DNA of 64,000 nucleotides from Eledone cirrhosa (GCA_964016885.1 OZ024741.1:171492001-171556000); one strand, 5' to 3'. Shown: positions 3,410-63,032, counted from the stretch's first letter. A program made the numbers and translations. Notes: generated by a model not told the origin, from the sequence alone.

Positions 3410-3945
3410 ACATATATATATATATATGTATATGTAGATATATATGTATGTAAATATATGTATATATGTATATTTATGTATATATGTATGTATACATATA
3501 TGTATATATGTATATATATGTATATATATATGTATGAATATATATTTCGTTTCTGAATTTGGCAACATGACCCTCCCAAAGCATAACAATATGTATATAT
3601 ATATATGTGTATGTATATATATATATATGTATGTACATATATATGTATGTATATATATATATATATATATATATGTATATATGTATATATCTATATATGT
3701 ATATATATATGTATATATATATATATATATGTATATATATATATATATATATATATGTATACATATATATGCATGTATACATATATGTATGTATGTGTAT
3801 ATATATATATATATGTATATATATATATGTATGTATACATATATGTATATATATATATATGTATGTATACATATATGTATGTGTGTATATATATATGTAT
3901 ATAAATATGTATATATATGTATATATATATGTGTGTGTGTGTATG
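3410..3945. repeat. (TA)n/(TATG)n microsatellite field containing a 50-bp element remnant at 3545-3592
   Basis: Direct reading; source of the YIYI ORFs. Confidence 0.95.
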
Positions 3946-4717
3946 TACGTTTGAGTATTTTTACACATTGATGGAAGTATTCACAATTACACCTGCACAC
4001 TATACCTTTATCCCCACCCTCTCTTTGTGAATTTAGCTAAATTATTGAAGGGAATAGAGAAATAAAGAAAGAGACAGAGATATGTATATATAGAGAGAGA
4101 GAGAGAGTAATGGAGAAATAGAAAGATAGAAAACACTCAATTTTATGCGATACTTTAGATTTATTTTTAAGAAATCACTTCAGTTGTTTAATTATTTCAT
4201 TTCTACTTTCACACACAGCACACATGCCTATAGATACAAATACACATGCATAAATACATATACACAAAATCATAAAAATAACATGCATACATTTACATAA
4301 CAATATAAGGACAAATACAGTTTTTACATCATGCACTTGATCTAATTTTCAATTTTTTAAAATATGGTGGTGATGCTTTATGACTGTTCTTCAATGGCAG
4401 AACACTGTAAAAGAATTTAAAATTATTGAAATCCCTGGTTCACAAAGAAATTCAACAGAAATATGCTTGATAACAACAACAGTATTAGCAATAACATCAG
4501 CAACAGTATTAACAAAATTATTACCAACAATGAAGTCTGTATATTGCTGCTCAGTCTGCTAGAAATAGTAACCAAATTTTCCTGAAATCACATCGTACTA
4601 CTTCAAAAAAGGAAGGATATATTGGATAATTCAATCACAGATATATATAAACTAGGCAATAATCATAACAACAATTACAACAGTCCGAATCTAGAACCAA
4701 AGAGGACAAACTCTAAG

Positions 4718-5100
4718 TTCTTCCTCTTCTTTGCCCACTTATTCCTGAGAGGGTCATAGGGGAAGAGTCCTCAAATGCTCCTTCCAGCGATTCCTGTCAG
4801 AAGCAACCATCTCCAACTGATCTGGCTGGATCCCCCAGCTCATGGATGTTATCCAACCATCTTGCTTTGGGTCTACCCCTGGGTCTCCTGCCAGTTGGTT
4901 TTGCCCATAAAATCTGTCCAGCGATTCTTTCCTAAGACATTCTAACAACGTGCCCATAGTATCGGAGCTGCCTACTGTAAATTTGGAAGAGTAGTGGCTC
5001 CTCCTGGAGTGACTATCTGATCTCTGAGCTACACACTTTATTGAGTAATGTTATTCCAAAGTCCCTTCAGAGGAATCCCATTTCGGCTGCTTGTATTCAA
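4718..5100 (-). mobile_element. RTE-clade LINE 3' fragment, family with (GAA)n tail
   Basis: Degraded C-terminus (..MVASDRNRWKEHLRTLP); homologous pieces at 23450-23690, 30330-30900 and 51226-51420. Confidence 0.65.
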
Positions 5101-6199
5101 AATAACAGCAAATCCCCCCAAAATCCCATCCAGCCATCTCTATTAAAGAACATTTTGTATACTGATTCTATGATGCATTTTGCCTTGAATTAAGTTGAAA
5201 TAGCCATGGCTGTAATACCTTCCATCATGATTCTGCCTGATTAGAGTTGAGCTGGAGCTAAACAACAGGAAAAATAGTAAAAATGCGTGCAGTAACAAGT
5301 ATAATCCATGCATATATGCATATTAGTATGGAGGTGTATATAAGCATGTATGCACAAGATATTCAAATACAAGCACTGTATAAACATCAACAAGAACAAC
5401 AGTAAAAGCAGTATATGTTGGCTTGCATGGGTGTGTAAATAACTGCCAATGTATGCATGTGTGAGATGCAGAATGTGCAATTGTTTGTACAGCATACCTG
5501 AATGCAAATGTTACATTTTTATCAGTAAACATAAGAAGAAGTGCAATAACAACAATAATAAAAAGGGAGTTTCTTTATGGTAGTAATAGTCAATTCTCTC
5601 TTAAATCATACCATAATGTCTTAATAAACAAACTACACTTTGGGTAATGTAGGTTTATATTTACAAAATCCAAAATAAAAGGATGATCATGGCAGAAATA
5701 CCTTTGATCAATGGTCTGCTCATTCTGAGATGATCTTATGCTTAGCAAAAACAATACTTATAACTATAATAACAAACACAAAATCAAAATATGGTTACAG
5801 CAGTCTGTAAATTTTCCATTAGAATATGGTTTGACAAATTTAACAAAAGAAATTTGTGTCAAGTATGCACTACAAGTTCCATATACAAAGCTTTTTTCCC
5901 AGAACAATTAGAAAAAACTCTTTCCACATTGTTTCTCTTTAGTATATCACCATGACTTCATTAAATTAAATTTAACAATTGCCTGGTCTAATGTTGGTCG
6001 ATTCCTTCATTTTGATATTTTTACCAATTACTTTATTGCAATCTCATTTTCTTTCATTTCATTAACTTTTTTATTGTCATCTCATTTACCTTATTTCATT
6101 GCCACCAGTTTATTTATAATCATTTCTTTTATTGCTATTGCATCATATTTCATTTAGATATTTTACCAGCTCTTGTATTGTAATCTTTTATTTACTATC

Positions 6200-6428
6200 T
6201 TAACTCTTTAGCATTTAAACCAGCCATATCCAGCCAGAACTCTTTCACCACTTTCTATTCAAACCGGCTGTAACTGGCCACTAATACTTATGTTAAGGTA
6301 TTGTTCTCAAAATAAATAAAATCAAAATCTCATAGATTCGGTATTATGCGAGATAATTATGTGAGGTAAAGCCTTTACTGTGAAAATACAATGGTATACA
6401 TAGAGTAACGTAAATGCTAAAGGGTTGA
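6200..6428. mobile_element. piggyBac-type MITE (~230 bp)
   Basis: TTAA-CTCTTTAGCATTTA ... TAAATGCTAAAGGG-TTGA terminal inverted repeats with TTAA-like TSD; three copies in window. Confidence 0.7.
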
Positions 6429-6666
6429 ACATGTATGTGTAGATAGAGTTTTTTCTGGTATTAACATCACTCTGTCCTTTTCTCTATATATTTTTCTATA
6501 AGTTGTCTATGGACACTGGGGCAGATTTGAGTAAAGAAAAAAGGATTTGGTCAAGAACATGTTAAAGGATGCTGATAAATTGAAAGGGAAGGAGACATCA
6601 AAACCTTTATATATAAACATTTACATGTGTGTGTGTGTCTATGTATTAATGTGTTTGCATTTGTCT

Positions 6667-7146
6667 ATGTAAATGACCACATGTGTATGTAAATGGCCAC
6701 ATATGTATGTAAATGGTCACATATGTATGTAAATGACCACATGTGTATGTAAATGGTCACATATGTATGTAAATGACCACATGTGTATGTAAATGACCAC
6801 ATGTGTATGTAAATGGTCACATATGTATGTAAATGACCACATGTGTATGTAAATGGTCACATATGTATGTAAATGACCACATGTGTATGTAAATGACCAC
6901 ATGTGTATGTAAATGGTCACATATGTATGTAAATGACCACATGTGTATGTAAATGGTCACATATGTATGTAAATGACCACATGTGTATGTAAATGACCAC
7001 ATATGTATGTAAATGACCACATGTGTATGTAAATGGTCACATATGTATGTAAATGGTCACATATGTATGTAAATGACCACATGTGTATGTAAATGGCTAT
7101 ATATGTATGTAAATGGCCACATGTGTATGTAAATCGCCACATGTGT
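6667..7146. repeat. 20-bp minisatellite, ~24 units, with 100-bp higher-order repeat
   Basis: Units ATGTAAATGACCACATGTGT and ATGTAAATGGTCACATATGT. Confidence 0.95.
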
Positions 7147-61420: not shown

Positions 61421-61566
61421 TAAATATATATATATATAGGAACGAGTAGGACCCCGACGGCTGAGCTCAAGCCGTTTCGACGGCTAATTCTGGACTAAAT
61501 AAAAAAAAAAATGGTGCGTATGGTCCACCTGGTTCCTTACCACATTTCCTTCGTTATATATATATA

Positions 61567-61676
61567 TATATCACGCTGAAAACTCCGGTTCTCGTCCGAT
61601 CACCGAAGTTAAGCAACGTAGAGCCTAGGTAGTACTTAGATGGGTGACTGCTTGGGAACCCTAGGTGCTGTAAGTA
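61567..61676 (+). rRNA. 5S rRNA: 5S rRNA copy lacking its first ~10 nt (pseudogene or SINE head)
   Basis: ATATCACGCTGAAAACTCCGGTTCTCGTCCGATCACCGAAGTTAAGCAACGTAGAGCC..AGTACTTAGATGGGTGAC..TGGGAA..GGTGCTGTAAG followed by TTTTT terminator. Confidence 0.9.
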
Positions 61677-61681
61677 TTTTT

Positions 61682-61800
61682 GAAGGCGCGTGGCTGAGTG
61701 GTTAGCGAATTGGATTCGCAATTGTGAGGTTGTGAGTTCGATTGCCGGACCAGGCGATGCGTTATGTCGTTGAGCAAGACACTGTATTTCACGTTGCTCC
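61682..61800 (+). mobile_element. SINE-B head directly after the 5S terminator
   Basis: GGCGCGTGGCTGAGTGGTTAG A-box, GAGTTCGATT B-box, TGAGCAAGACAC body. Confidence 0.85.
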
Positions 61801-61957
61801 TTCTACCTGGAGTTGCGACTGATAGATAGTATTAGCAATTGGAAAGACCAACGGAAACATTGTACCCTCGGTCCGATTTGACGAAAGTCGATCGACTGTC
61901 GATATATATATATTTATATATATATGTGTATATATATATATAAATCTCTCTCTATAT

Positions 61958-62530
61958 ATATAAGTATGTATACGTACATACATATATGTATACAGACGTA
62001 CAGTAGTATGTATATATATATGCATACATGCACACATATATATATGTACGAATGAATCTACCGAACATTTATTATAATGCTCGGTGTGTTTGTAAACAAA
62101 GGAACGATGTACTAGTTTCAAGCTTATTAGCTATCGTCAGCACAGTATACCTTCATGCCGTTGATATGCATAAGGAAAGTATATACTTTCAGACGTTCAA
62201 TCATCTTGCAGGAAGGTATACGGTGCTGACGATAGCTAATAAGCTTGAAACTAGTACATCGTTCCTTTGTCAGTGTTGAACAAAAGAGCAACGATGGTTG
62301 CTAAACACTGTACGGCTTAATTCGGGATGTTTGTTTATAAACACACCGAGCATTATAATAAATGTTCGGTGAATCCATACGTACATATATATATGTGTGC
62401 ATGTATGTATATATATACATACTACTGTACGTCTGTATACATATATGTATGTACGTGTACATACTTATATTTAAGTAACAGCCGTACTAAGAGTGGGAAA
62501 TGAAATTTTGTTTCATTTTTTCCGTCTCTA
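61958..62530. mobile_element. TA-flanked fold-back element: ~200-bp arms, ~50-bp loop, HHR in both arms
   Basis: 61958-62158 vs 62208-62470 (extra ~60 bp in right arm); tail runs to TA at ~62530. Confidence 0.88.
62220..62262 (+). ncRNA. Minimal type I hammerhead ribozyme (mirror copy at 62104-62146 on minus)
   Basis: ACGGTG-CTGACGA-TAGCT-AATA-AGCTT-GAAA-CTAG-TA-CATCGT: 6-bp stem I, palindromic stem III ACTAGT, GUA site. Confidence 0.88.
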
Positions 62531-63032
62531 TATATATATAAATAAATATATATATATATATATGTATATACAGGAACAAGTAGGACCCCGACGGCCGAGC
62601 TCAAGCCGCCTCGACGGCTAATTCTGGACTGTATATATATATATATATATATATATATATACCTCAGTGTAGTGGCAACAGTATTAGTAGGAATAGTAAG
62701 ACTGTAAAAGTGTCATGGTTAAGAATTGATGTTTAGGACTAATGTGAACTTTGACATGAGTTGGTGCTGTATGCTGATATGAAATCAACAAATAAGATAA
62801 CAGTTGCCAAATAGAGTCAAGTCTTGGCAGTTTCTTCTTATCAGATGAAAATGAATTGGTTTCGCTGGTCAATACACATATACTTACATATTCACTAAAT
62901 TCATTTACTAATTCTCACCTGACCGCATCCTAGTACATGGCTCACACAAACCATTAATCCATACCAACATGTCTTACTGATCACCAAACAACAGAACATG
63001 GTTTCCTGTAAAAATATACATATATATATATA

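What the first reader, a model, noticed from the sequence alone, without database searches (positions are those of the whole stretch)
3545..62632. Independent copies keep the same termini but have different centres
Seen in four families. 3545-3592 joins the two ends of 46253-46762 (GAAACGAAAT|ATA and AACAATAT|). 16995-17100 shares both ends with 61168-61420. 61439-61555 shares both ends with 59528-59728. 17125-17245 shares the CTTCTA|TATA end, and nearly the other end, with 23765-24023. Inferred: both boundaries are mechanistically defined (for example both cDNA strands primed at fixed element positions annealed to TA targets, or a palindromic unit copied whole and then losing its centre), unlike random LINE 5' truncation.
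Basis: partly seen in the sequence, partly recalled or inferred. Interest (0 to 1): 0.75.

Follow-up and report, generated by a model that had tools for sequence, protein, structure and literature searches.

The report
Two-armed Penelope retrotransposon insertion stubs
These repeats are cut-short, back-to-back double copies of the 3' end of four Penelope-like jumping-gene families inserted in TA microsatellites, a known insertion pattern; nearly every pair has the short 'tail' on exactly one arm, which likely records copying started from two fixed points on the two DNA strands.

Summary
Observation confirmed. Each cited copy is two head-to-head arms of one element: one ends at a 'tail' end (T), the other 59-89 nt earlier (N), in or beside (TA)n. 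The centre is where two variable 5' truncations meet. Longer genomic copies of all four families run into a reverse transcriptase plus C-terminal nuclease frame (GIY-YIG fold shown for family 1) and carry hammerhead-type motifs: they are Penelope-like elements (one Neptune/Nematis-type, three Hydra-type). An inverted truncated copy with a one-sided tail is published PLE anatomy, and two internal RT start sites bounding the tail were shown in vitro (PMC11167929). Added here: 165 of 169 classifiable pairs are one N plus one T; genome-wide 13,491 N versus 11,832 T continuations among 28,757 family-1 ends; the tail-less arm reaches further 5' in 57 of 165 pairs, against simple fold-back of one cDNA; the arms share variants. 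Best model: twin target-primed reverse transcription from two fixed sites (inferred). The scan noted this pattern before on other DNA of this genome.

The parts
3545..3592 (.). Family 1 minimal insertion: about 16-nt tail-end arm (sense on -) joined over 3 shared bases to a 34-nt tail-less arm (sense on +), in (TA)n
46253..46681 (-). Family 1 tail-less (N) arm: 3' UTR with hammerhead-type motif (core about 46441-46407)
46679..46762 (+). Family 1 tail (T) arm, including the 59-nt tail; 3-nt overlap with the N arm
16995..17104 (.). Family 2 insertion: T arm 16995-17052 (sense -), N arm 17056-17104 (sense +), 3 extra bases between
61168..61420 (.). Family 2 insertion: T arm 61168-61327 (sense -, 89-nt tail), N arm 61351-61418 (sense +), 23 extra bases; hammerhead-like motif with CAGAAGA variant core
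17125..17246 (.). Family 4 insertion: T arm 17125-17204 (sense -, 16 nt short of the tail end), N arm 17200-17246 (sense +), 5-nt overlap
23765..24023 (.). Family 4 insertion: symmetric centre, T arm 23766-23924 (65-nt tail), N arm 23929-24023; hammerhead-type motif in both arms
59528..59730 (.). Family 3 insertion: symmetric centre, T arm 59529-59666 (81-nt tail), N arm 59670-59730
61436..61555 (.). Family 3 sister-subfamily insertion: N arm 61436-61499 (sense -), T arm 61512-61555 (sense +), 12-nt A-rich spacer
62572..62632 (-). Family 3 sister-subfamily N arm alone, between TA runs

Best explanation
These repeats are 5'-truncated, head-to-head double insertions of the 3' ends of four Penelope-like retroelement families in TA microsatellites, likely made by twin target-primed reverse transcription from two fixed start points on the element RNA. 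Shown: the parents encode RT and a C-terminal nuclease; each insertion has two arms with 3' ends pointing outwards, one ending at the tail end and one 59-89 nt upstream; the 5' ends vary. Inferred: the nuclease cuts both strands of a (TA)n target; one nicked strand primes at the tail-end site and the other at the internal site, probably on the same RNA or RNAs of one source locus; each cDNA stops early at its own point, or both at one RNA stop point; the cDNA ends are joined by short microhomology or with a few added bases, and repair completes the duplex.
For: Identity: RT motifs and nuclease-like C-termini upstream of family 1, family 4, family 3 and family 2 (YRDD in 13 of 30 loci; 29 of 30 loci picked by the ORF end lead to the N or T end); RVT_1 weak hit E 0.001; the family-1 C-terminal model (pLDDT 80) has the I-TevI GIY-YIG domain as top Foldseek hit, E 6e-4. 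Pairing: 165 N+T, 3 T+T, 1 N+N, 18 with an unclassified arm, of 187 pairs; genome-wide N:T = 13,491:11,832. Arm reach: N further 5' in 57, T in 43, within 10 nt in 65, of 165; N further by 200 nt or more in 15 of 45 family-1 pairs. Shared non-majority bases within versus between insertions: 1.56 v 0.27%, 2.33 v 0.35%, 3.06 v 1.11%, 0.18 v 0.05%. PMC11167929 (parts 1-2 of 4 read): a PLE protein cuts and extends both strands, starts at two RNA sites bounding the tail, and is predicted to be a dimer.
Against: Symmetric centres exceed permutation in families 1 and 4 (8 v 1.6; 15 v 6.1) and often overlap (2 nt or more in 19 of 23 v 36% simulated), as snap-back would also give. PMC11167929 saw no difference in start site between strands in vitro, which does not by itself predict one N plus one T. 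The own partner is the closest arm in only 33 of 135 pairs, and in family 2 arms within an insertion differ no less than between insertions (2.5 v 2.0%). Microhomology at asymmetric junctions is modest (2 nt or more: 28 of 53 v 39% simulated). About a third of position-ordered family-1 arms (31 of 101) had no partner found. The arm filter excluded 3' ends more than 12 nt upstream of N, and many loci were picked by similarity.
Confidence: 0.62

Rival explanations
1. Same elements, but one cDNA primed at the tail end folds back on itself and is copied to the N point; the palindrome later loses part of its centre, so either arm can end up longer.
For: Symmetric centres in excess in families 1 and 4, overlaps at symmetric junctions and shared variants between arms. 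It explains one tail per insertion directly. PMC3846280 (Discussion read) interprets junction palindromes as self-priming, on an antisense template. Instability of long palindromes is recalled, not from a call.
Against: Without later deletion it forbids a longer tail-less arm, seen in 57 of 165 pairs, by up to about 2 kb. It needs a separate reason for the copy to stop exactly at N. Extra bases are frequent at junctions (89 of 165 pairs, against 21-30% apparent in simulation).
Confidence: 0.27
2. Two separate insertion events: a second copy lands head-to-head at the 5' end of the first.
For: The families cluster in the same TA runs; solo arms exist.
Against: It predicts about half N+N or T+T pairs; found 4 of 169. 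Arms share variants and are joined without a TA run.
Confidence: 0.03
3. Non-autonomous hairpin elements or foldback DNA transposons with fixed terminal repeats, copied whole and later deleted internally.
For: Many family 2-4 copies are short and centred at similar positions.
Against: The ends are asymmetric (tail on one side); all four families continue into RT frames; central bases differ between copies with the same centre. Some short master copies are not excluded for families 2 and 3.
Confidence: 0.05

Closest known systems
Endonuclease-bearing Penelope-like elements: inverted 5'-truncated copy plus one-sided tail (Craig et al. 2021, PMC8557442, passages incl. Fig. 2 legend; Arkhipova et al. 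2013, PMC3846280, passages and Discussion)
   Same: Head-to-head inverted truncated copy, tail on one end, hammerhead motif near the 3' end, AT-rich or (TA)n targets, RT plus C-terminal GIY-YIG.
   Different: Tails here are 59-89 nt against 30-40 nt described; most copies are stubs of 50-500 nt at tens of thousands of sites; the near-strict N+T pairing is counted here and was described only as 'often' or 'optionally' in the passages read.
Hydra clade of PLEs, e.g. Hydra-1_Obim (PMC8557442 section 11 and supplement excerpts)
   Same: Families 2, 3, 4: CxCX5C linker, no cysteine pair between the GIY and YIG parts, CxxC and CxH around the E and N residues, (TA)n targets; RT motifs resemble Hydra-1_Obim by eye.
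   Different: No tree was built; RWK and DKT motifs not examined; families 2 and 3 have non-canonical hammerhead cores.
Neptune/Nematis-type PLEs (PMC8557442 passages)
   Same: [quoted passage not shown]
   Different: Element of at least 3.9 kb with an Asn/Thr-rich N-terminal stretch; Neptune versus Nematis not resolved.
PAc (Poseidon of Anolis), in vitro (PMC11167929, parts 1-2 of 4)
   Same: Two RT start sites bounding the tail; both strands cut and extended; AT-rich targets; hammerhead cleavage not needed (arms here also extend past the predicted cleavage sites).
   Different: The parts read do not model the inverted double insertion or assign one start site to each strand.
L1 twin priming (recalled; one search listed three papers, none read)
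   Same: Two cDNAs primed from both target strands and joined in the middle.
   Different: In L1 the second priming site is a variable internal position; here both sites are fixed and near the 3' end, so the arms overlap as an inverted repeat.

Membership tests
EN+ Penelope-like elements | Reverse transcriptase upstream of the terminal repeat | tested here: met
   YVDD frame in family 1 (RVT_1 E 0.001, below the curated cut-off); RT motifs in families 4, 3, 2
EN+ Penelope-like elements | C-terminal GIY-YIG endonuclease | tested here: met
   Family 1 model matches I-TevI, UvrC and EndoII GIY-YIG domains; families 2-4 align to it at VY..Y.G..H. Pfam gave no GIY-YIG hit for any.
EN+ Penelope-like elements | Inverted 5'-truncated copy and a tail at one end | tested here: met
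   165 of 169 classifiable pairs are N+T
EN+ Penelope-like elements | Hammerhead ribozyme motif in the terminal repeat | tested here: inconclusive
   CUGAnGA/GAAA cores in family 1 (57 of 59 pattern matches keep both cores) and family 4; variant cores in families 2 (CAGAAGA) and 3 (TTGATAA). No hammerhead among the 150 of 225 Rfam rows shown; single-sequence folding z-scores not significant; cleavage untested.
EN+ Penelope-like elements | Partial tandem forming direct pseudo-LTRs around a full-length ORF | not tested
   No full-length 5' end was mapped; the longest copies (L289, L290) reach about 3.9 kb
EN+ Penelope-like elements | RT phylogeny with PLEs and telomerases | not tested
Hydra clade (families 2-4) | CxCX5C linker, no CCHH, CxxC and CxH flanking E and N | tested here: met
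   against the definition (CxxC is altered in the L214 copy, intact in L222 and L229)
Hydra clade (families 2-4) | RWK and DKT motifs; phylogenetic placement | not tested
   N-terminal parts not retrieved
Hydra clade (families 2-4) | Insertion into (TA)n | tested here: met
   404 of 572 arm ends of families 2-4 followed by TA repeats
Neptune/Nematis type (family 1) | CX2-5CxxC linker plus CCHH motif in a C-terminal nuclease | tested here: met
   the clade within this group is not resolved
TIR DNA transposon or MITE | Symmetric terminal inverted repeats and a transposase parent | tested here: not met
   Ends asymmetric, parents encode RT

The most novel reading that the evidence does not exclude
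Penelope-like elements integrate by an obligately asymmetric twin-priming step: one complex primes one target strand at the tail-end site and the other at the internal site of the same RNA. This would explain the inverted repeat and the one-sided tail as one event, in both Hydra-type and Neptune-type clades, and this genome holds tens of thousands of such events to test it.
Probability: 0.5. Interest if true: 0.6.

Novelty: new member of a known kind. Interest (0 to 1): 0.33.

Why it matters
The anatomy is known, but how PLEs form inverted insertions is stated to be open (PMC8557442, PMC3846280). Near-strict one-tail-per-insertion pairing, with either arm longer, separates twin priming from simple self-priming and gives a prediction that the published in vitro system can test. 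Practically, these stubs are very common in this genome (39,203, 28,757 and 8,037 exact 22-mer matches for families 2, 1 and 4) and can be mistaken for MITEs or microRNA hairpins.

Tried and rejected
Rfam scan: only 5S rRNA passed its threshold among the rows shown; microRNA hits are hairpin or TA artefacts; 75 lower rows not shown. Pfam missed the nuclease, so a fold search was used. Single-sequence folding of motifs and tails gave no significant z-scores, so no tail hairpin is claimed here. The first pairing script capped overlaps and missed partners; replaced. The exact-match null for microhomology overstated the enrichment; the same-pipeline simulation is used. Apparent third end points were rejected: family 2 at -50 is mostly TA-like matching and family 3 at -39 is another family sharing 39 nt (first 8 of each shown). 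The family-3 cluster at -130 likely reflects the sister subfamily diverging from the reference; family-1 clusters at -137 and about -470 are mostly alignment breaks at indels. The loose hammerhead scanner found 19 cores against 1-8 in shuffles and missed families 2-4. Segmental duplication rejected. Literature searches for a twin-priming model of PLEs and for an octopus-specific description listed none in this library; subscription papers, including the original PLE structure papers, were not searchable, and the one supplement file was cut when stored.

Full report
Setting. The window lies in a 3.0-Gb animal genome, is 35% GC and rich in microsatellites. The best named homologue of a family-1 protein is from Octopus vulgaris at 60% identity, so a cephalopod host is likely (inference).

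Observation. The four pairs are present. Against one natural long copy per family, every cited element resolves into two arms whose 3' ends point outwards: one ends at the far end (T), the other 59, 89, 81 or 65 nt earlier (N; families 1, 2, 3, 4). 17125-17246 stops 16 nt short of T, 62572-62632 is an N arm alone, and 61436-61555 is a sister subfamily about 81% identical to 59528-59730. Flanks are unshared in 32 of 32 comparisons.

Fixed ends. A 22-mer inside the family-1 N end occurs 28,757 times; 13,491 continue with ATAT and 11,832 with the tail, together 88%. Of 101 position-ordered matches, 53 had no tail match and 48 had the tail, 47 of them to within 4 nt of its end. Over all 401 sequences held (1.43 Mb, partly picked by similarity, de-duplicated by context), 686 of 773 arms ended within 6 nt of N or T and 576 of 773 were followed by TA repeats. 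That count left out arms ending more than 12 nt upstream of N, and part of the remainder are artefacts.

Identity. Walking upstream in other copies reached coding sequence in all four families. Family 1: an uninterrupted 863-residue frame with YVDD, a CX4CxxC linker and a C-terminal domain whose model matches the GIY-YIG domain of I-TevI; Pfam gave only a weak RVT_1 hit. Family 4: RT motifs and nuclease-like end. Family 3: the same. Family 2: YRDD in 13 of 30 loci, with 29 of 30 loci leading on to the N or T end. Families 2-4 have the CxCX5C, CxxC and CxH motifs that define the Hydra clade; family 1 has the Neptune/Nematis-type motifs. No tree was built. Hammerhead-type cores lie upstream of N: canonical in families 1 and 4, variant in 2 and 3; Rfam and folding did not support them independently.

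What is known. PMC8557442 (passages, section 11, supplement excerpts) describes an inverted 5'-truncated copy next to the 5' end and a 30-40-bp tail often at one end only, and lists Hydra-1_Obim with (TA)n targets. PMC3846280 (passages and Discussion) describes the same and favours self-priming. PMC11167929 (parts 1-2 of 4) shows two internal RT start sites bounding the tail, and cutting and extension of both strands. The anatomy is therefore known.

Mechanism tests. Of 187 head-to-head pairs, 165 are N+T, 3 T+T, 1 N+N and 18 include an unclassified arm; independent choice of end would give about half like pairs. In the position-ordered family-1 set, 65 of 101 arms were in N+T pairs (48 adjacent, 16 spaced or broken by indels of which at least one may be chance, 1 with a short partner), 4 in other pairs, 31 without a partner found and 1 at an edge. 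The tail-less arm reaches further 5' in 57 pairs, the tail arm in 43, and 65 are within 10 nt; a tail-primed cDNA that folds back cannot give a longer tail-less arm without later deletion. Symmetric centres exceed permutation in families 1 and 4 but not 2 and 3 (p 0.14, 0.09). Arms of one insertion share non-majority bases about 3-7 times more often than arms of different insertions, though family 2 rests on 4 sites and the partner is the closest arm in only 33 of 135 pairs; later gene conversion could also give this. Junctions: 89 of 165 have extra bases; among the rest, overlap of 2 nt or more is 28 of 53 (asymmetric) and 19 of 23 (symmetric) against 39% and 36% in blunt simulations. One young insertion has two 3.9-kb arms 99.8% identical, one T and one N, separated by about 4 kb of other sequence.

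Model. Most likely (0.62) both target strands prime reverse transcription, one at each fixed RNA site, and the two variably truncated cDNAs are joined; symmetric centres would arise when both stop at one point. Fold-back with later central deletion remains (0.27) and may account for part of the symmetric class. Identity as Penelope-like elements is much more secure (about 0.98) than the mechanism.

Novelty. New families of a known kind with a known insertion pattern. Searches for a twin-priming model of PLEs listed none in this library. Earlier notes of this scan report the same reading and a similar one-tail ratio on other DNA of this genome; they prompted the Hydra comparison, which I tested, and are not independent support.

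Noticed in passing
window 53157-53469, 59072-59499, 62049-62381, 25317-25697: Further fold-back elements beside TA runs with hammerhead-type cores (both arms in the first three, one strand in the last); likely more PLE families.
   Followed up: partly
window 56213-56629, 36808-37417, 41111-41306, 11395-11524, 51475-51583: Other palindromes; 36808-37417 is built from pieces of other repeat families; parents not traced.
   Followed up: no
window 61558-61800: 5S rRNA match (90.8 bits) right after the family-3 stub, continuing into a repeat shared with 36730-36855, 40737-40888 and 17997-18081; possibly a 5S-derived SINE.
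   Followed up: no
window 43346-44804, 53750-55324, 63253-64000, 8667-9029: Fragments of RTE-type LINE reverse transcriptases (label by recall of motifs); 54557-55324 and 63253-64000 are 90% identical.
   Followed up: no
window 157-339 and about 15 other sites: Abundant repeat of about 185 nt, probably a SINE.
   Followed up: no
families 2, 3, 4; arm 5' ends: 5' ends pile up in or just before the hammerhead motif (family 2 at -153 to -165, family 3 near -138, family 4 at -110 to -165) with different central bases per copy; a likely RT stop or RNA end. Family 1 shows no such pile-up.
   Followed up: partly
L289, L381, L290 (G000:C1 about 13,323,200-13,335,200): One insertion with two 3.9-kb arms 99.8% identical; the 4-kb centre holds another LINE-like sequence joined to a 105-nt internal piece of the element.
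   Followed up: partly
L122, L285, L007, L012, L347, L352, L376 junctions: Central inserts of 20-57 nt are often short repeats or copies of nearby element sequence, suggesting template jumps.
   Followed up: partly
family 3 tail, reference -77 to -39: A different family shares a 39-nt stretch of the family-3 tail; may be the conserved tail signal that earlier notes mention.
   Followed up: no
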